Shown in pieces: positions 894-57,983 of a stretch of 64,000 nt of DNA; within the stretch, counting starts at the first letter, position 1, and each line of letters opens with the position of its first letter. The stretch comes from a virus. Below the pieces are notes generated by a model. It was not told the DNA's origin. It saw only the letters and a program-made list of their open reading frames with translations, and did not search any database. The stretch lies in the IMG/VR virus record IMGVR_UViG_3300045988_173816, positions 32,001 to 96,000 of that record; one strand, 5' to 3'. The translations under genes were made by a program, and so were the position numbers.

Positions 894-1664
894 TTGAGAA
901 CCAAAGAAGAGGTCTTTGAGTTGGTTAAATCACATCTTATTGATTTAGATTCGGTATCAGAAGTCGCCACTCAGCGTAAGTATATTCATGATGAGATTAA
1001 GTCTTATTTAGTTGAGAATTATTTAGGTTTCGCAACAAGTCCTTCGGTCAATATTGAGTTGATGAACGCTTTAGATGAGGTTGGTTGGCTTGACAAAGGT
1101 ACATTTACCTTGGAGGGTAGAGTAGTTGTACCTATTCGCAACGCAGATGGTTCGATTGCTACCTTGGTAGGTTGGCGAAAAGGATTTCCAAAATACTACA
1201 CGATTGCAGATAAGGATTTTTCTAAAGAAAGTCATTGGTTTAATTTAGACAGAGCCTTGGATAAGTCCTTTAATGGAGATAAGCGGTATCGAGGTTCTAT
1301 TGTGGTGGTTGAGGGTATATTTGATGCTCTTCATTTGGATGCTTATGGTGTACCAGCTATTGCGACTGTGGGAGCGGACGTAAATGCTTATAAGGGAGCA
1401 GTTCTTAACTTGTTCGACAAAGTGATTTGTGTCCCGGATAATGATAGAGCAGGGCAGAGAGCTTTACTAGAGAAGAAATGGCAAGTACCGACTAGTGCAA
1501 CTTTCTTATATGTAGAAGAAAAGCGGTATCAATTTGGAGAAGGTCTTTCTTTTCAAGTAAAAGATATTGATAACTTTTTAAGTCTATTCGGTTCTCAAAT
1601 TCATGAGGTTCTAGTGCCTTTGGTGGAGAACAAAGCAGCAGTAGTGGAGAGGTTGAGTTTATGA
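894..1664 (+). CDS. Toprim-domain DNA primase-like protein
   Basis: VVVEGIFDALHL (Toprim Glu) and VICVPDNDRAGQRA (DxD). No N-terminal Zn ribbon seen. TTG start about 10 nt after AAAGGAAAGGAAG. Confidence 0.7.
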   Translation: MRTKEEVFELVKSHLIDLDSVSEVATQRKYIHDEIKSYLVENYLGFATSPSVNIELMNALDEVGWLDKGTFTLEGRVVVPIRNADGSIATLVGWRKGFPKYYTIADKDFSKESHWFNLDRALDKSFNGDKRYRGSIVVVEGIFDALHLDAYGVPAIATVGADVNAYKGAVLNLFDKVICVPDNDRAGQRALLEKKWQVPTSATFLYVEEKRYQFGEGLSFQVKDIDNFLSLFGSQIHEVLVPLVENKAAVVERLSL

Positions 1665-42560: not shown

Positions 42561-42978
42561 TGTCATAACTATTTTTATTTTTGTCATAGCTTTTAGAAAT
42601 TGTGTCCTAAAAATAAGTTGTTTTGTCATGAGCTTGTCCTAATTGTCTTAAAATTTGTCATAAGGTTATTTATTTTTGTCATAAATCTATTCAAATTTGT
42701 CATAATTCTATTTAGAATTGTCATAAAAACAGTTTTATTTGTCCTAACTTTAGTTAAAAGTGTCATAGAGTGATTACATTTTGTCCTAAATCTTTGCTTG
42801 TTTGTCATAAAATACTTAGATTTTGTCCTAAATTTACTCAAAGGTGTCATAGAATAGTTTATTTTTGTCTTAACTTTAGTTATACTTGTCTTAATTTGAG
42901 GGTTGTTTGTCATACCTCTCTTAAATTCTGTCCTAATTTAGTAACTAATTGTCTTAAAAGACTTTAAATTGTGTCATA
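42561..42978 (+). repeat. array of 22 direct iterons, core TGTCMTA, 21-bp phasing
   Basis: Cores at 42561, 582, 603, 624, 635, 644, 656, 677, 698, 719, 740, 761, 782, 803, 824, 845, 866, 887, 908, 929, 950, 972. All are in the same orientation. Spacing is 21 bp, with 9-12-bp steps (a half-period register shift) between 42624 and 42656 and a final 22-bp step. Confidence 0.9.
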
Positions 42979-43274: not shown

Positions 43275-43330
43275 AGCAGAAAGCAGAAAGCAGAAAGCAG
43301 AAAGCAGAAAGCAGAAAGCGGAAAGCAGAA
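43275..43330 (+). repeat. heptanucleotide tandem repeat (AGCAGAA) x8
   Basis: Eight contiguous units, the seventh reading AGCGGAA. Located in the non-coding ori-like region. Confidence 0.9.
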
Positions 43331-45699: not shown

Positions 45700-46140
45700 A
45701 TGATAGATAGGTACAAATATGAGGTTGAAATTATGGATGATGGGGTGGAGCGTACTGTTTCATGCGTAAACCTTTTTAAACACAGGCTTTATAGAGGGTT
45801 GGTTCAGACAAGAGGTAAAGGTCAGTACACGTGTTTATTTGAGATTTTGGCTTACCCTTTGTCTTATAAGAAAACTAAACTGGCAACATACTCTAATCGC
45901 TTGTTATATAAGAGTTTGTTTGAACTTACAGAACTTTCGCAAGAGGGTATCTCTTCACTGCGTGAAACTTTTCCTTTAGAGTTACTTCACCAAGCTTTTA
46001 AACGAGCGGTTCCAGAGCTTTACCTTTATAATAAGAGGGTTACTTCAGACAAGTACAAGCTCTTAGTTTCTAACTATTCTGAGCTTGAGTCAAATTATAT
46101 AAGGAGATTAGACAAATGTGGCAAAAAGTTTCAAAAATAG
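45700..46140 (+). CDS. hypothetical protein
   Basis: 146-codon ORF with RBS GAAGG. Confidence 0.5.
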   Translation: MIDRYKYEVEIMDDGVERTVSCVNLFKHRLYRGLVQTRGKGQYTCLFEILAYPLSYKKTKLATYSNRLLYKSLFELTELSQEGISSLRETFPLELLHQAFKRAVPELYLYNKRVTSDKYKLLVSNYSELESNYIRRLDKCGKKFQK

Positions 46141-46730
46141 CCTTATTGGGTGTGTTAGCACTCTCAGTATCCTCCCCAACCTTGGCATTTGCTAAAGGGG
46201 GTCACGGAGGTGGTCATGGTGGCTCTCATGGAGGTTCTCATGGAGGTTCTCATGGTGGTTCAAAAGGTGGCTCACACGGTGGGTCGAAAGGTTCAACTGG
46301 TGGATCGAAGGGTTCAACTGGCTCACACAACACAAGCAACCACGGAGGTTCAACTGGTTCTAAAAGCAGTTCTCACTCTGTCTCTAGTCACGGTCGGTCT
46401 TACCGACCTAGTGCGATAGGAATGCCGATTTCGTCTTGGCGCTCCCTAAGTTCCCAAGCAGAGTTTAAGAGTGGACACACTGCGGTTCCGTCTTTCACCT
46501 CGTCTGAAAATACGGTGAAGACCTTTTATTCTGCAGACACTCCTTTAAATATGCTTTTGTACCGCCCGTTATATGGTTATAACCACTCGTCTGCACACTA
46601 TTTACCTGTTCAGACTGAGGAAGAAGAGCAAGAGGATAAACCAAAGATAAATATTACTATACTGTGGATTTTAGCTGCTATCTTAGTTCCACTCCTAGCT
46701 TTTATTGGTTATATTGCACTCTCAAATTAA
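46116..46730 (+). CDS. secreted, C-terminally anchored Gly/His/Ser-rich repeat protein
   Basis: Signal peptide ending TLAFA, then GGHGGGHGGSHGGSHGGSHGGSKGGSHGGSKGSTGGSKGSTGSH (DNA repeat at about 46197-46328), and a C-terminal TM ILWILAAILVPLLAFIGYIAL. Confidence 0.6.
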   Translation: MWQKVSKIALLGVLALSVSSPTLAFAKGGHGGGHGGSHGGSHGGSHGGSKGGSHGGSKGSTGGSKGSTGSHNTSNHGGSTGSKSSSHSVSSHGRSYRPSAIGMPISSWRSLSSQAEFKSGHTAVPSFTSSENTVKTFYSADTPLNMLLYRPLYGYNHSSAHYLPVQTEEEEQEDKPKINITILWILAAILVPLLAFIGYIALSN

Positions 46731-46785
46731 GTTTTCTTAGGAAGTTTATAGAGAAAGTTGTTTTAAAAGGATTTGGCAAGTTAAT

Positions 46786-47470
46786 GGAGGGTATCGCATC
46801 ATACTTCGAAATTTTCTCCAATTCGGCAAATTTAAACGTGGAGTTTTTACTCCACATGTGACTGAGTTCTTAGAAACTCAGCAGTAGCAACTATTTAGCT
46901 AACTGAAAACATAATTTCCTTGATTTAAAAGGGTTTTGAGGGTATCGCATCATGGTTTGGGATTTTCTCTCAACTAAAATGGCGCTTTCCCCTTATTTAC
47001 ATTAGTTGGATCGATTGGTAAGTTCTAAATTGCTTGGTACGGCTGGGTTTAGTTAGTTTGGTCAAAATTACAAGAGGGTATCTAATCCCTTCTTTCGATT
47101 TTTCAATTTCTCAAATTGGAATTGAGAGGTTTAAAAAGAGAAAAAGAAGGTTAAATCCCTTGGTACGTTTAGGTTTAACTTAGTTTTCCTAACCTACCGA
47201 AGAAGGTATCTAAACATACTTCTCAAATTTTATTTTCTTAAAAGAAGTGAAGAGTTGAAAATTTGTGCCAACAAAGTTGAAACTCATTGGTACATAAGGT
47301 TTTACACTCGCTTTTTCAACTTATTGGAGAGGGTATCCTTCAGCACCTCCAAAATTTTCTCCAGAGCTTACCAATTAAAAGTCAAAATTTATTGGTAACA
47401 ACTTTGAAAGTCCTTGGAACACAAGGAATTAAACCATATTTCTCAACCTCACTCAGAGGGTATCTAACAT
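46786..47470 (+). repeat. six degenerate 127-151-bp tandem units, each headed by RAGGGTATC
   Basis: GGTATC at 46790, 46941, 47077, 47205, 47332 and 47459. Shared boxes are AAATTTTCTC/CTCAAATTT and YTTGGTAC. Lies in a 975-bp spacer. Confidence 0.7.
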
Positions 47471-47705
47471 AAGACCTCAAATTTGATTTTTACGTGTCTA
47501 TTTGGAGTGAGTTTTTTCAAAATAAGTAGGTGCTTTCTCTAAGAAAATACCCAATTCCCTTACCACACAAGCAGTTTCGCTAGTTTTCTCTATAAAAACA
47601 AGCAAAACCCTTGATTTAATTTCAGCATAAACATAAAAATTAGATTTTAAATATATAAAAAGAAAAATGGACTAATTTCAGTCTCATTATTTAAATAGTA
47701 GAAAG

Positions 47706-49922
47706 TTGGTAAAAATGTATCAATCAGCACTCGACAACCTCAGTAACGACAAGGGTTTTGCTAGTGTAAAACCTAGTGCAAATTCAAAGCAACAACCTAC
47801 TGAGGAACAAATTTACGAAGAAAATATGAAGAAGTATTTGGACTTGGTTGCTTCTAAAGGTTATAATTTAGAAGAACTAGAACCAATTATTCGCTCTGAG
47901 GGTCGCACAGAGTTGTTTGCGACTGCGGGTTCAGGTAAGTCCACTTCGATTTCTTTGATTTTAGCAAAGGATAAAACCATTGGTCGCTTGTCTCCAGCTA
48001 ACCGAGGTAAGAAAGTTGCTTGGGTGACTACCTTCTTAAGTAAAGGCGCAGAAGAGATTAAACAGAACGTAGAGCGCACTTTCGCTAAACTAGGTCTTAC
48101 TGGAGTATCCACTTCCGATATTACATTCAGCACATTACAATCAGAGTTCTTTGAGCTTTTACGACTTCGTGGGTTTAACCTCACAGATAAGTCAAAGTCA
48201 GACTATGTTCAAATGTTAGACGCAGGTGGTGGTGATACTGAGGGTTCTCGTAATTTCAATGCTATTATGGGTAGACTTTTCCGTAAACATGACTTAGGTG
48301 ATGAAGGTAGTAACTATGTTTCTCTTCAAGATAAAAGAGATTTGGCTGCTATTATTTCAAACTACCGTAACTGTTCTATTTCTGAGTACCAATTTGGAGA
48401 AGCAGCAGACACGGCTAAACGCTTGAATCTCCCAAGAAACTTACTTCCAGTTGTAGTTGAAGATTACCAAGCACTCAAAGAGTCCTTGAACGTTATTGAC
48501 TTTGATGATTTGATGACTTACGTTTACGATTATATGGTCGTAGAAAAGGAAGATGATCCAGTTCAGATGGCTTGGGTCAACTTCTACAAAAACCGTTACG
48601 AATACTTCATGTTGGACGAAGCTCAAGATATGTCTGAGTTGCAGTACCAAGTATTGAAACCAATTTTTGAGAACTGTCCGCGTGTTGTTATTGTAGGGGA
48701 CCCAGACCAGTCGATTTATGGTTTCCGTGGTTCAAACCCAGAAGTCATGGAGTGGTTCGACAAGGAGTATAAGCCTACTAAATACCCACTCTCGGTATCT
48801 TACCGTTGCCCGTCAAATATTTTGAAGCCAATTACCAAATCAATTGAGAAGAACTCAAATCGTTATGAACATTCTCTTCGCTCATTTAAAGAAGGTGGAG
48901 TCCTTGAAGCTTACCATTTCGACTCTGTAAAAGATATGGCTGAAGCTTCTTTGCAATTGATTGATAAATATTTAGCTGAAGGAAAAACCATTGCAGTTCA
49001 ATCTCGAGTAAATTTCACTTATTCTCCAGCTTCTATTCTTTACGCAGTGAAGCGCCAAGGTGACTTCAACTTACTAGGAGACGTAAGGGATTTTAGAACC
49101 ACTCGTTATAAAAAGGTTTGGAATCTTATTGAAATGGTGCGTGGTCGAGGTTTGGTGGATATTAAGAATAACTTAAAAGTTTTAGCTCCAGAGTTGAAAC
49201 CTTGGGACGCTAAAAACCTCGCAGAGCGCCTAATGAATGCTATTCCAGAAAATAAAAATGTGTTGTTCTCCGATAACTACGCTTATTTGGACTTCATTGC
49301 GCAAGAATATGGTCTCAAGTCTATGGCTACTTTGGTAGACAAGTTACGAAAGACTTATGGTCAAGAATTTCCCGGAGAAATGGTTCTATTTAAAGAGCTT
49401 TTGGCTCATGTCCTTTATTGGGGGGAGCCCGCTAATGCAGAGGTAGTCGGCACTATTTCAACATTGGCAGAGGAAAGTGAAACTGTTACAGACTTCTTTA
49501 GCAACATGGACTTTATCAATAACAAAATTGGTGAAGCTAAGAGGGGTGGGACTTCACTCTTAACTTTTGCTACTCCATTTAGCTTTAAAGGACGTGAAGC
49601 CAATGTCAACATTATTTTTGATGCTTCTGACGGTGTCTTCCCTTACACATTAAGTGGTGAGTTGAGTTATGAAGAAGAGCGTCGAGTTCACTTTGTAGCA
49701 GGAACACGTGGTGATGAGGTCACTATTTACCTTACTCGCAGAGGAAAGGCTTCACCATTCTTGAAAGAGATGGGTATCCCTATAAAAGCGTGGACTCCAC
49801 TTGACGGAGTGGTACTAAATGGTGTAAAATTAAAGGAGGAGTTGAGATTGAAAGAACGCATGCAAAAAGCCAAGGTCGAAGAACAACTTGGCGCGTTCAC
49901 AGACTTCGATTTTAAACTTTAA
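47706..49922 (+). CDS. UvrD/Rep/PcrA-family superfamily-1 DNA helicase
   Basis: Motifs ATAGSGKST (I), TTFLSKGA (Ia), MLDEAQDMS (II), VIVGDPDQSIYGFRGS (III), SYRCPSNI (IV), TPFSFKGREANVNIIF (V), VHFVAGTRGDE (VI). The start may be ATG 47715. Confidence 0.85.
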   Translation: MVKMYQSALDNLSNDKGFASVKPSANSKQQPTEEQIYEENMKKYLDLVASKGYNLEELEPIIRSEGRTELFATAGSGKSTSISLILAKDKTIGRLSPANRGKKVAWVTTFLSKGAEEIKQNVERTFAKLGLTGVSTSDITFSTLQSEFFELLRLRGFNLTDKSKSDYVQMLDAGGGDTEGSRNFNAIMGRLFRKHDLGDEGSNYVSLQDKRDLAAIISNYRNCSISEYQFGEAADTAKRLNLPRNLLPVVVEDYQALKESLNVIDFDDLMTYVYDYMVVEKEDDPVQMAWVNFYKNRYEYFMLDEAQDMSELQYQVLKPIFENCPRVVIVGDPDQSIYGFRGSNPEVMEWFDKEYKPTKYPLSVSYRCPSNILKPITKSIEKNSNRYEHSLRSFKEGGVLEAYHFDSVKDMAEASLQLIDKYLAEGKTIAVQSRVNFTYSPASILYAVKRQGDFNLLGDVRDFRTTRYKKVWNLIEMVRGRGLVDIKNNLKVLAPELKPWDAKNLAERLMNAIPENKNVLFSDNYAYLDFIAQEYGLKSMATLVDKLRKTYGQEFPGEMVLFKELLAHVLYWGEPANAEVVGTISTLAEESETVTDFFSNMDFINNKIGEAKRGGTSLLTFATPFSFKGREANVNIIFDASDGVFPYTLSGELSYEEERRVHFVAGTRGDEVTIYLTRRGKASPFLKEMGIPIKAWTPLDGVVLNGVKLKEELRLKERMQKAKVEEQLGAFTDFDFKL

Positions 49923-54062: not shown

Positions 54063-55301
54063 GTGTACTATTTGAATGTATTGGAATTATTTGCAGGAGT
54101 AGGTGGTTTCCGAGTAGGTCTTGAGAAAGCAAGTCCTACTTTTAAAACTTTGTGGTCGAACCAGTTTGAACCGTCGAGAAAGTCACAAGATGCTTTTGAG
54201 GTTTACAATTATCATTTCCCAGACAGTGAAAACTGGAATGAAGATATTTCTTTGATTTCCGACGAGCGTTTTTCTGCTTTAAAAGGTAAGGTAGATTTGA
54301 TTGTAGGCGGGTTTCCCTGCCAAGACTATTCTGTAGCAAGAACTAAGAAAGATGAAAAGGGTATCGAAGGAAAGAAAGGGGTATTATTTTGGGAAATCAT
54401 TAGAGCCACTAAACTAAGTAATCCTAAGTATTTACTCCTCGAAAATGTAGATCGCTTGTTAAAAGCCCCCTCTAAGCAAAGAGGGAGAGACTTTGCTATT
54501 ATGCTGAGAGCTTTTGCAGATTTAGGTTATGGTGTTGATTGGAGAGTTATTAACCCTGCTGATTATGGATGGTGTCAGCGAAGAAAGAGAGTCTTTCTCT
54601 TTGTTTATCGGAAAGATACCGACTATTTCAAGCAACAACAGAGTTTAGAAGATTTCGGAGTAGGTATTAGTGGTATCTTTGAGGAAGCTTACCCAACTAA
54701 AGATGAGGTTGTAAAAGACAGATTTCATTCGTTTATCTTACCCGAAGACATCGTAGAGGTCTCAGATTCGTTCTCTATGAACTTTTGGTACGCTGGTAGC
54801 ATGATAGAAGGTCAAGTCGTTACAAAGGAGCTAAAGCCTTATTATGATGGTGCTTACTTATTCTTAAAAGATGTTTTAGAAAACCCTTCTGATTTACCAA
54901 AGGAACTTTATTTGTCTGAGGACAAAGTAGATAAGTTCCGGTATCTAAGAGGCGCTAAGAAGTTTGAGCGCACTAATTCAGAGGGGTATACTTACACTTA
55001 CTCTGAAGGCGCTATGGCTTTAGTAGATAGCACAGATTTACCGTCTCGTACTTTGTTGACTTCTGATGGTTCTATTAGTCGCACCACTCACTTAGTTGAA
55101 GATGAGAAAGGGTATCGTCTCTTAACTGCACTTGAAACTGAGCGCCTACAAGGTTTCCCCGATAATTGGACTGAGATTAAACGCAGTAAAGGTAAGGATG
55201 TAGTGGTATCCGATACAAGAAGAAAATTCTTTATGGGAAATGCTCTAGTTGTTGAGGTTGTTGAGAGTTTAGGTAAATACATTGCTTATAGATTAAATTA
55301 G
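54063..55301 (+). CDS. DNA (cytosine-5)-methyltransferase
   Basis: Motifs LELFAGVGGF (I), GGFPCQDYS (IV), LLENV (VI), QRRKRVF (VIII), ERLQGFPDNW and GNALVV (X). The likely true start is TTG 54072, 10 nt after AAGGAG. Confidence 0.85.
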   Translation: MYYLNVLELFAGVGGFRVGLEKASPTFKTLWSNQFEPSRKSQDAFEVYNYHFPDSENWNEDISLISDERFSALKGKVDLIVGGFPCQDYSVARTKKDEKGIEGKKGVLFWEIIRATKLSNPKYLLLENVDRLLKAPSKQRGRDFAIMLRAFADLGYGVDWRVINPADYGWCQRRKRVFLFVYRKDTDYFKQQQSLEDFGVGISGIFEEAYPTKDEVVKDRFHSFILPEDIVEVSDSFSMNFWYAGSMIEGQVVTKELKPYYDGAYLFLKDVLENPSDLPKELYLSEDKVDKFRYLRGAKKFERTNSEGYTYTYSEGAMALVDSTDLPSRTLLTSDGSISRTTHLVEDEKGYRLLTALETERLQGFPDNWTEIKRSKGKDVVVSDTRRKFFMGNALVVEVVESLGKYIAYRLN

Positions 55302-57819: not shown

Positions 57820-57983
57820 TGTCTCAAATTCTCTATCTTCTGTCTTAACTTTCTTCCGATTTGACTTACCATTTAGTCTTTCTGTCTTATTTTTAGTTAA
57901 ATATGTGTTAAATCCTTCACTACTTGTCCTACTTCTAAACTTATTTGTCCTATATTCATTTTTCTTGTCATACAGTTGTCATA
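57820..57983 (+). repeat. second iteron array (9 copies, core TGTCMTA and variants, 21-bp phasing)
   Basis: Cores at 57820, 57841, 57862 (TGACTTA), 57883, 57904 (TGTGTTA), 57925, 57946, 57966, 57977. Same orientation as the 42.6-kb array. Ends 5 nt before a -35 box. Confidence 0.85.

What the first reader, a model, noticed from the sequence alone, without database searches (positions are those of the whole stretch)
46731..47705. Six tandem units of about 130 bp, each headed by RAGGGTATC, in a 975-bp spacer upstream of the UvrD-like helicase
GGTATC occurs at 46790, 46941, 47077, 47205, 47332 and 47459, with spacings of 151, 136, 128, 127 and 127 bp. The units are degenerate but share three elements: an AGAGGGTATCTAA-type head, an AAATTTTCTC/CTCAAATTT box about 20-35 nt later, and a YTTGGTAC box about 85 nt later. 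The first unit holds two clean hairpins (GTGGAGT-tttt-ACTCCAC at 46838-46855 and CTGAGTT..AACTCAG at 46862-46881). This is the densest concentration of the window-wide polar motif. It sits in one of only three large non-coding regions, directly before an SF1 helicase gene. It could be the loading, origin or transfer site for whatever reads GGTATC, or an array of small RNAs or decayed terminator cassettes.
Basis: seen in the sequence. Interest (0 to 1): 0.68.

Follow-up and report, generated by a model that had tools for sequence, protein, structure and literature searches.

The report
Lineage-specific tandem array of GGTATC sites
The spacer before the helicase gene is a real but old and degenerate tandem repeat, found in only one sub-lineage of a giant human-oral plasmid-like element; only the element-wide one-strand signal GGTATC at the head of each unit is clearly kept by selection, so it is a local pile-up of ordinary GGTATC sites and not an origin or transfer site.

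Summary
Six GGTATC sit at the stated positions, and units 2-5 are clearly homologous beyond the hexamer; units 1 and 6 are only weakly so. The spacing is far from chance (P about 5e-6).

The window comes from a 284-kb human oral metagenome contig of an Inocle-like giant element. All 19 distinct close relatives (helicase 92-95% identical) carry the same ordered array, with 4-8 units. Seven more distant relatives keep the gene order and the polar motif but have no spacer at all.

Within the array:
- The hexamer is conserved: 0.94 per base, and about 95% of heads are intact.
- Unit bodies drift at close to the synonymous rate (0.70-0.75 against 0.67).
- I found no Rfam match, convincing covariation, protein remnant, dispersed copy or DnaA box.

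The array heads are average members of the genome-wide site class: S-GGTATC, A at -11/-10, T-tract at +24 to +29, 116:3 strand bias, all reading frames, spacing more even than random.

Best reading: an accessory tandem duplication that quadruples the local density of generic sites for an unknown, element-encoded, strand-specific reader. An origin or transfer role is contradicted. A dedicated loading platform is not excluded.

The parts
46731..46783 (+). Pre-array leader between the stop codon of the 204-aa ORF and unit 1
   Evidence: Conserved at 0.80 between the window and L129/L132, above the 4-fold-site identity of 0.67.
46784..46934 (+). Unit 1 (type A, 151 bp), head GAGGGTATC at 46787-46795. 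It carries two perfect 7-bp hairpins, at 46838-46855 and 46862-46881.
   Evidence: Orthologous unit present in relatives.
46935..47070 (+). Unit 2 (type B, 136 bp), head GAGGGTATC at 46938-46946
   Evidence: families D1, D3; U2-U3 z=7.4.
47071..47198 (+). Unit 3 (type C, 128 bp; about 10 bp shorter than in relatives), head AGAGGGTATCTAA
   Evidence: (family D9).
47199..47325 (+). Unit 4 (type D, 127 bp), head AGAAGGTATCTAA. This is the one head that does not match RAGGGTATC.
   Evidence: (U4-U5 z=13.6).
47326..47452 (+). Unit 5 (type E, 127 bp), head GAGGGTATCCTTCAGCACCTC
   Evidence: (19-nt head shared with L008).
47453..47620 (+). Unit 6 (type F, about 168 bp), head AGAGGGTATCTAA. In relatives a further unit (type Z) follows here; it is deleted in the window between 47620 and 47621.
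47621..47714 (+). Post-array leader and probable promoter/ribosome-binding region of the helicase gene
   Evidence: Conserved at 0.82. Aligns with L008 together with the gene at 82%.
47715..49922 (+). UvrD/PcrA/Rep-like SF1 helicase gene (735 aa), directly downstream of the array
   Evidence: Pfam UvrD-helicase 2e-31. Best PDB sequence matches are UvrD1, UvrD, PcrA and Rep. The exact 735-aa product is on record.

Best explanation
The spacer is an old, accessory tandem duplication of a non-coding segment of about 127-150 bp. That segment carried one ordinary copy of the element's strand-specific signal.

The signal is S-GGTATC with a weak A-tract about 10 nt upstream and a TTTNTT-like tract about 24 nt downstream. 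It occurs about every 550 bp on the + strand. The + strand is both the coding strand and, if forks move in the direction of the genes, the lagging-strand template.

The duplication happened in the ancestor of one sub-lineage, the one whose helicases are 92-95% identical. Since then:
- The seven unit types (A-F and Z) have diverged from each other.
- Whole units have been lost or fused by unequal recombination.
- The unit bodies have drifted at close to the neutral rate.
- The hexamer in nearly every head has been kept.

So the array works, as far as it works at all, as a four-fold local densification of generic GGTATC sites. Each head is used by the same reader that uses the roughly 110 other sites in the window. 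It is not a unique origin, transfer or loading site.

Shown: the array, its phylogenetic distribution, which parts are conserved, and that the heads are typical sites.

Inferred:
- My preferred guess, held at low confidence, is a priming or loading signal for the element's own replication proteins. These include a DnaG-type primase core without a zinc finger at 894-1664 and the UvrD-like helicase next to the array.
For: Distribution. The array is present, in the same unit order, in all 19 distinct elements whose helicase is 92-95% identical, with 4-8 units and a canonical spacing of 150, 137, 138, 127, 127, 173 bp. It is absent from seven syntenic loci at 79, 71, 51 and 35% helicase identity, where the gap before the helicase is 19-66 bp. 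Six of these keep a dense polar GGTATC (16:3 to 42:3 per roughly 14 kb for L003-L006); L007 instead carries the related GGGTAT (25:0).

Conservation, window against L129/L132:
- hexamer 0.94
- 8 nt upstream 0.73
- +6 to +30: 0.75
- unit bodies 0.70-0.71
- 4-fold sites of the helicase gene 0.67
Across 11 arrays the mean identity is 0.796 against 0.735 at 4-fold sites.

Heads. About 115 of 121 are intact. Genic sites in the helicase gene have an occupancy of 0.78.

Whole-unit changes. The window lacks unit Z. Six-unit arrays carry a D/E fusion.

Site class. A flank-only weight matrix built from non-array sites separates real sites from random positions (p=1e-40). It places the six array heads at the 30th-74th percentile.

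Genome-wide properties of the motif:
- 116:3 strand bias, against about 14 expected on both strands together.
- Equal use of the three reading frames, 28/29/36.
- Spacing CV 0.60 against 0.99 for random placement; none of 10,000 simulations reached it.
- No single-mismatch variant comes close.

No unit-like sequence occurs elsewhere in the window or in L003-L007.
Against: - A full kilobase of non-coding DNA has been kept in every sampled member of the sub-lineage, across a divergence of 0.3-0.4 differences per neutral site. Heads are kept at least as well as genic sites. This hints at selection for the array as such, and so favours the platform rival.
- The spacer as a whole is a little more conserved than 4-fold sites. 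Several units keep small inverted repeats that pair better on the + strand.
- I could not see transcription data, so an RNA role is not formally excluded.
No protein in the window was shown to bind GGTATC.
- Replication direction and transcription direction coincide throughout the window, so they cannot be told apart here.
Confidence: 0.55

Rival explanations
1. Dedicated platform. The array is a selected, high-density landing or loading zone, or a centromere-like or titration site, for the factor that reads GGTATC. It sits next to the helicase gene, and what matters is the number and spacing of heads, not the sequence between them. F plasmid sopC works this way with its 43-bp repeats.
For: - Retained in all 19 distinct close relatives, never with fewer than four intact heads.
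- Heads about 95% intact, while bodies drift.
- Four-fold higher site density than anywhere else in the window.
- Immediately upstream of an SF1 helicase.
Against: - Sister lineages with the same gene order and the same polar motif have no spacer at all.
- Copy number varies from 4 to 8, and the best-conserved unit (Z) is missing from the window itself.
- The heads are average sites, not exceptionally good ones.
- Spacings of 103-177 bp show no helical phasing.
- The conserved iteron cluster 4 kb upstream is the better centromere or origin candidate.
Confidence: 0.25
2. RNA element. The units are small RNAs, or repeated structural modules of a long 5' leader of the helicase mRNA.
For: - Units 1, 3, 4 and 5 fold somewhat better than shuffles (z -3.0, -2.5, -2.1, -1.8).
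- Small inverted repeats are kept in orthologous units. They have many G:C to G:U changes and pair better on the + strand (alifold z -4.7 and -8.0 for units D and E).
Against: - No Rfam match at E<=1.
- RNAalifold on whole orthologous spacers gives a positive covariation term of +3.75.
- Consensus energies are weak (-5 to -17 kcal/mol per unit), and almost all changes are one-sided transitions.
- The hairpins are not in register between unit types.
- No excess of promoter-like or terminator-like sites.
- Bodies evolve near the neutral rate.
Confidence: 0.08
3. Remnant. The spacer is a decayed protein-coding gene, or the relic of a mobile element such as a MITE, BOX/RUP-like repeat or IS end.
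For: - IS607-type elements (serine recombinase plus TnpB) insert close to the helicase in relatives.
- The spacer is an insertion or deletion relative to sister lineages.
Against: - tblastn of 585 ORFs from the window and relatives against six spacers gives nothing better than E=0.006.
- The 127-128 bp period is not a multiple of three, and orthologues differ by 1-nt indels.
- The unit profile finds no copy outside the array in 64 kb plus five relatives.
- No terminal inverted repeats flank the units.
Confidence: 0.05
4. Replication origin or origin of transfer.
For: - A large, repeat-rich non-coding region next to a helicase gene.
- Contains the densest cluster of the polar motif.
Against: - Absent from seven syntenic relatives.
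- Cumulative GC skew rises monotonically through it.
- No DnaA box, even with one mismatch allowed.
- GC content is not lowered; it is 0.378 for 46-48 kb, against 0.303 at the iteron region.
- No relaxase or type IV secretion genes were detected among the proteins scanned.
Confidence: 0.03

Closest known systems
Skewed 'architecture-imparting' chromosome motifs: Chi (RecBCD/AddAB) and KOPS/SRS (FtsK/SpoIIIE), including the Lactococcus heptamer KOPS GAAGAAG
   Same: A short motif that is over-represented and strongly biased to the leading-strand sequence. It is independent of reading frame and varies in sequence between lineages (PMC3384302 read).
   Different: - Known examples occur once per 2-20 kb with skews of 0.8-0.9. 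GGTATC occurs once per 0.55 kb with a skew of 0.975, and it is evenly spaced.
- No local tandem array of Chi or KOPS is known (my own knowledge).
- No RecBCD/AddAB or FtsK homologue was identified in the window.
Plasmid centromere or iteron arrays, such as F sopC (twelve 43-bp direct repeats, each holding one short binding site) (my own knowledge)
   Same: Tandem direct repeats in non-coding DNA. A short core is conserved, the rest is not, and copy number varies.
   Different: - The units are three times longer.
- The core motif is not confined to the array; it is spread over the whole element on one strand.
- The array is dispensable in sister lineages.
- The element has a separate, conventional iteron cluster with a 21-bp phase.
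Primase recognition sites of T7-type and DnaG-type primases (for example 5'-GGGTC/TGGTC/GTGTC for T7 gp4) (my own knowledge)
   Same: A signal read on the lagging-strand template and needed at regular intervals. The element encodes a DnaG-type catalytic core.
   Different: - Known sites are 3-5 nt and are not strongly over-represented or strand-exclusive.
- No binding or priming data exist here.
- The primase core lacks the zinc-binding domain that reads the template in known primases.
RfaH ops element (GGCGGTAGCGTG), read on the non-template strand (my own knowledge)
   Same: Strand-specific and co-oriented with transcription. The frequent variant GCGGTATC shares GCGGTA with ops.
   Different: - ops occurs once per operon leader, not every 550 bp inside genes.
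- No NusG or RfaH paralogue was found among the window proteins scanned.
Streptococcal intergenic repeats (BOX, RUP, SPRITE) (my own knowledge)
   Same: Non-coding repeats of about 100-150 bp in Streptococcus-associated DNA, with hairpin potential.
   Different: Those are dispersed, MITE-like families. This unit is found only in this one tandem array.

Membership tests
Tandem direct repeat (degenerate satellite or VNTR-like array) | Head-to-tail units with significant mutual similarity beyond a shared short motif | tested here: met
   With the hexamer removed, U2-U3, U3-U4 and U4-U5 score z=7.3-13.6. U1 and U6 are weaker. A profile of 36 units recovers every unit in register in 20 loci.
Iteron-type replication origin | Positional conservation among related replicons, AT-rich unwinding region, DnaA boxes or short phased iterons, GC-skew switch | tested here: not met
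   Absent in seven syntenic relatives. No DnaA box. GC content is not lowered and the skew is monotonic. The units are 127-173 bp, not 17-22 bp.
Plasmid centromere (sopC/parC/parS type) | Array of binding sites adjacent to, and co-inherited with, a partition operon; the binding motif is specific to that locus | tested here: not met
   The actin-like partition gene lies 12 kb away, and its upstream region carries the TTGTCMTA iterons, not GGTATC units. GGTATC is dispersed over the whole window.
Known RNA families (Rfam 15) | Covariance-model match | tested here: not met
   No match in 46.7-47.7 kb at E<=1.
Structured non-coding RNA in general | Conserved secondary structure supported by compensatory changes | tested here: inconclusive
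   Whole-spacer RNAalifold covariation term is +3.75. Per-unit consensus folds are weak, with z -2 to -8 on the + strand and mostly one-sided G:C to G:U changes.
Intrinsic terminators | GC-rich stem-loop directly followed by a T-run | tested here: not met
   Two terminator-like sites were found in 46.0-48.2 kb, against 1.8 expected. The unit-1 hairpins lack a T-run on the + strand.
Dispersed MITE-like repeats (BOX/RUP type) | Multiple dispersed copies and terminal inverted repeats | tested here: not met
   No copy outside the array in the window or in L003-L007. Only 64 kb of the 284-kb contig, plus about 14 kb per relative, could be searched.
Pseudogene | Translated similarity to a protein family | tested here: not met
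   tblastn of 585 local ORFs gives nothing significant. Global protein databases were not searched with the translated spacer.
Chi/KOPS-type skewed motif (applies to the hexamer, not the array) | Over-representation, strong leading-strand skew, and a cognate translocase or nuclease that reads it | tested here: inconclusive
   Over-representation and skew are met and exceeded. No cognate reader was identified. Density and evenness lie outside the known range.
Inocle (giant Streptococcus extrachromosomal elements; PMC12340149), applied to the host element | InoC marker gene; circular 245-368 kb; human oral; GC 24-32%; mostly unknown genes, LPXTG proteins, plasmid-like partition genes | not tested
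   Consistent features:
- 284-kb human oral contig.
- Relatives of 200-286 kb.
- An LPXTG adhesin and an actin-like partition protein.
- Most proteins have no family match.

Less consistent: GC is about 36%, against 32% reported. InoC was not available for comparison. IMG/VR lists relatives as viral genomes.

The most novel reading that the evidence does not exclude
The giant oral elements carry a previously undescribed, element-encoded system that reads an evenly spaced, almost strand-exclusive hexamer. The hexamer is GGTATC, and it changes to GGGTAT(T) in a distant lineage. In one sub-lineage, the array upstream of the helicase has been recruited as that system's high-density entry or assembly platform. 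This would be a new kind of genome-wide polar guide signal with its own loading zone.
Probability: 0.2. Interest if true: 0.72.

Novelty: new variant of a known kind. Interest (0 to 1): 0.45.

Why it matters
On present evidence the array itself is an accessory repeat. Its value is as a natural experiment on the polar motif. In about 1 kb of DNA free of coding constraint, only GGTATC and a little of its context survive 0.3-0.4 substitutions per neutral site. This shows that the hexamer is selected at the DNA level.

The genome-wide signal is about 5-20 times denser and more skewed than the Chi or KOPS examples I compared. It is evenly spaced and shared by a whole family of 200-290 kb human-oral elements. 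The paper describing Inocles, the closest described elements, does not mention it. Finding its reader would reveal how these giant replicons organise replication, transcription or segregation.

Tried and rejected
- Tandem Repeats Finder does not see the array because the units are too divergent.
- blastn of the locus against the phage and plasmid collections found no match.
- A GTDB genome scan with the helicase found no relative.
- A 19-mer head pattern found nothing in IMG/VR.
It returned only chance hits; for example, L077 is a ribosomal-protein operon.
- Hairpin hypothesis for the genome-wide sites: genic sites fold no better than their own shuffled flanks, -5.11 against -5.13 kcal/mol.
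- 'Super-site' hypothesis: the array heads score as average sites.
- Helical phasing: the unit lengths (103-177 bp) are not multiples of one period.
- Sigma-70 promoter reading of GGTATC-N17-T-tract: the position that should hold the invariant A of the -10 box is depleted in A, 18 of 91.
- CodY box and DnaA box resemblances were checked by eye and by search. There is only a half-site or no match.
- The conserved 415-aa neighbour has no match in Pfam, PHROGs, NCBIfam or PDB. AlphaFold gave mean pLDDT 57.6, and Foldseek found no match at E<=0.001. Nothing was learned about a possible reader.
- The 315-aa protein downstream of the helicase also has no informative match.

Full report
OBSERVATION

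Five heads match RAGGGTATC and unit 4 is GAAGGTATC.

The spacer runs from the stop codon of a 204-aa ORF at 46730 to the helicase start. That start is most likely ATG 47715, not TTG 47706, because the 735-aa product from 47715 is the one recorded on public contigs.

Tandem Repeats Finder does not report the array. The repeat finder recovers the head, the AAATTTTC box and the YTTGGTAC box as three-copy families at 126-128 bp spacing.

I removed the first 12 nt of each unit, so the hexamer cannot contribute, and scored local alignments against 400 shuffles:
- U2-U3 z=7.4, U3-U4 z=7.3, U4-U5 z=13.6.
- U1-U2 z=3.2, U1-U6 z=4.6, U2-U6 z=4.4.
- U5-U6 shows no similarity.

So there are four clear units and two degenerate flanking ones. 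Both unit-1 hairpins are real.

This is the densest cluster in the window. Six sites in 675 bp would not be surprising under Poisson placement (P about 0.46). However, the sites elsewhere are much more evenly spaced than random: CV 0.60 against 0.99, reached by none of 10,000 simulations. Resampling the window's own gaps gives P about 5e-6 for five consecutive gaps of 151 bp or less.

WHAT THE WINDOW IS

The exact helicase protein places the window on a 284,100-bp contig from a human oral metagenome.
- All ORFs of at least 100 aa, bar three overlapping ones, are on the + strand. GC is about 36% and GC skew is positive throughout.
- Most proteins match no family.
- The recognisable ones are an LPXTG/MucBP adhesin, a PcsB-CHAP hydrolase, a C5 methylase, a RecJ-like DHH protein, an actin-like partition ATPase, the UvrD-like helicase and a DnaG-type TOPRIM primase core.
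- Homologues of the helicase sit on contigs of 200-286 kb. IMG/VR lists such contigs as viral genomes.

This profile fits the 'Inocle' giant extrachromosomal elements of oral Streptococcus, which are 245-368 kb, plasmid-like and rich in LPXTG proteins (PMC12340149). I could not test the InoC marker, and the reported GC of 32% is lower. That paper does not mention a GGTATC motif.

THE GENOME-WIDE SIGNAL

- GGTATC occurs 116 times on the + strand and 3 times on the - strand, against about 14 expected on both strands together.
- It uses the three reading frames equally (28, 29, 36) and also occurs in non-coding DNA. It is therefore selected at the nucleic-acid level.
- No single-mismatch variant approaches it. 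The best are GGTTTC 42:16 and GGTATT 32:9.
- Even the 91 purely genic sites show a wider context: G or C at -1, almost no C at -2, A at -11/-10 (about 50%), and T at +24 to +26 and +28 to +29 (up to 54%).
- A weight matrix of the flanks alone separates real sites from random positions (p=1e-40).
- The sites are not in hairpins: their minimum free energy equals that of shuffled flanks.
- The motif is shared by relatives down to 51% helicase identity (L003 16:3, L004 21:1, L005 32:0, L006 42:3). In L006 it is GGGTATC (31:0). In the 35% relative L007 it is GGGTAT (25:0, often GGGTATT). A motif that changes with the element lineage argues for an element-encoded reader.
- Known Chi and KOPS motifs occur once per 2-20 kb with skews of 0.8-0.9 (PMC3384302). 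This signal occurs once per 0.55 kb with a skew of 0.975.

COMPARATIVE ANATOMY OF THE ARRAY

Nineteen distinct elements whose helicase is 92-95% identical to the window's all have the array at the same place, in the same orientation and with the same order of unit types.
- The canonical form has seven heads spaced 150, 137, 138, 127, 127 and 173 bp (types A-F and Z).
- The window has A-F. It has lost Z by a clean deletion between 47620 and 47621, and its unit C is about 10 bp shorter.
- Six-unit arrays carry a D/E fusion.
- Other arrays have four or five heads.
- L008 lacks the 204-aa gene but has a longer array, including two decayed GGATATC heads.

Seven loci from more distant lineages (79, 71, 71, 71, 71, 51 and 35% helicase identity) keep the same gene order, which is: DnaJ-like gene, 92-aa gene, 1.1-1.8 kb non-coding iteron region, 253-aa HTH protein, 413-aa, 146-aa, helicase. 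In these the helicase follows the preceding gene after only 19-66 bp.

A profile of 36 units finds no further copy in the 64-kb window or in those relatives.

WHAT IS CONSERVED

These elements are far apart at neutral sites. Identity at 4-fold degenerate sites of the helicase gene is 0.59-0.71.

Identity of the window against L129/L132, by zone:
- hexamer 0.94
- 8 nt upstream 0.73
- +6 to +30: 0.75
- unit bodies 0.70 and 0.71
- pre-array leader 0.80
- post-array leader 0.82

Over 11 arrays the mean pairwise identity is 0.796, against 0.735 at 4-fold sites. About 115 of 121 heads are intact. The four GGTATC positions inside the helicase gene are occupied in 11-17 of 19 elements (see also for turnover). 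The array heads score as average sites on the flank matrix, at the 30th-74th percentile.

So the array is old, because its units had diverged before the sampled elements split. It is stably inherited, with occasional unequal crossing-over. It is constrained essentially only at the polar hexamer.

ALTERNATIVES TESTED

RNA:
- No Rfam match at E<=1.
- RNAalifold on three orthologous spacers gives a positive covariation term.
- Per-unit consensus folds are weak. They retain small inverted repeats: the head AGAGGGT/ACACCTCT, TGTGCCAA/TTGGCACA and TTGCCA/TGGCAA. These have mostly one-sided G:C to G:U changes and somewhat better scores on the + strand.
- This is suggestive, not convincing.

Promoters and terminators: no excess.

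Coding remnant: nothing by tblastn, and the period is not a multiple of three.

Origin:
- Absent from relatives, with monotonic GC skew, unexceptional GC content and no DnaA box.
- The positionally conserved cis region is the one 4 kb upstream. It has eleven TTGTCMTA iterons, ten of them on a strict 21-bp grid, at 42581-42914. A second cluster of four lies at 57924-57983, in front of the RecJ-like and actin-like genes.

Transfer origin: none of the Pfam, PHROGs or NCBIfam hits for the window proteins I scanned is a relaxase or type IV secretion family.

MECHANISM

Shown: each head is a bona fide, selected copy of the generic site; the rest of the unit is close to neutral; and the array is dispensable in sister lineages.

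Inferred: the array is an accessory tandem duplication that multiplies generic sites. It is tolerated or mildly favoured, and it is not a unique control site.

The + strand is both the non-template strand of every gene here and, if forks move with the genes, the lagging-strand template. Several features suggest a replication signal needed at regular intervals, such as priming or loading on the lagging-strand template:
- the even spacing of about 0.5 kb;
- independence from reading frame;
- the extreme strand exclusivity;
- a DnaG-type primase core that lacks its own zinc finger.

An ops-like signal read on the non-template strand during transcription is the main alternative; GCGGTATC shares GCGGTA with ops. 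Neither could be tested here.

I give that rival about 0.25.

VERDICT

The feature is real. The origin, transfer, small-RNA and terminator-cassette readings are not supported. The array is of moderate interest in itself. The family-wide polar signal that it highlights is the more remarkable object.

Noticed in passing
window 42581-42914 and 57924-57983: Iteron TTGTCMTA. There are eleven + strand copies at 42581-42914, ten of them on a strict 21-bp grid, inside the AT-rich non-coding gap (GC 0.30). That gap is kept at the same place in all relatives. A second cluster of four copies lies directly in front of the RecJ-like gene and the actin-like partition gene. This is probably the real origin, centromere or operator system of the element. 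Many short-read contigs of relatives break in this region.
   Followed up: partly
whole window (116 + strand sites); relatives L003-L007: The GGTATC signal is evenly spaced (CV 0.60) and has an extended context: S at -1, A at -11/-10, TTTNTT at +24 to +29. Its sequence shifts with lineage, to GGGTATC in L006 and GGGTAT(T) in L007.
   Followed up: partly
window 894-1664 (+): A 256-aa protein with a DnaG-type primase catalytic core and a TOPRIM domain (Pfam Toprim_2 1.6e-7; E. coli DnaG core 2e-4). It has no cysteine-containing zinc-binding domain. It is a candidate element-encoded primase whose template reader, if any, must be a separate protein.
   Followed up: partly
whole window: The hexamer AGATTA occurs 61 times on the + strand and once on the - strand, so TAATCT is almost absent from the + strand. 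AGATT is 222:40. This may reflect codon usage plus the TAA stop codon, or it may be a second polar signal.
   Followed up: no
whole window: GATC is four-fold depleted: 38 sites against 151 +/- 12 expected. This fits avoidance of DpnII-type restriction in streptococcal hosts. An orphan-looking C5 cytosine methylase gene lies at 54063-55301.
   Followed up: no
L003 8298-10203; L004 12307-13548; L132 1-1808: IS607-type insertions (MerR-like serine recombinase plus TnpB, or TnpB alone) sit next to the helicase module in several relatives. They are always co-oriented with the genes.
   Followed up: no
window 46116-46730 (+), repeats at 46202-46321: The 204-aa ORF before the array contains 12- and 24-bp in-frame repeats coding for Gly-Gly-Ser-His-like runs, and it has a hydrophobic C-terminus. 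It is accessory: present in most array-bearing relatives and in L005, but absent from L008 and from the other lineages.
   Followed up: no
window 43275-43330: Eight perfect-to-near-perfect copies of the heptamer AGCAGAA, in the conserved non-coding region just upstream of the 253-aa HTH protein gene.
   Followed up: no
L133-L151 (IMG/VR): Relatives of this element, at 200-278 kb, are filed as viral genomes in IMG/VR. Yet no capsid, portal or terminase family was matched in the 64-kb window. The classification of the family as phage or plasmid-like looks unsettled.
   Followed up: no
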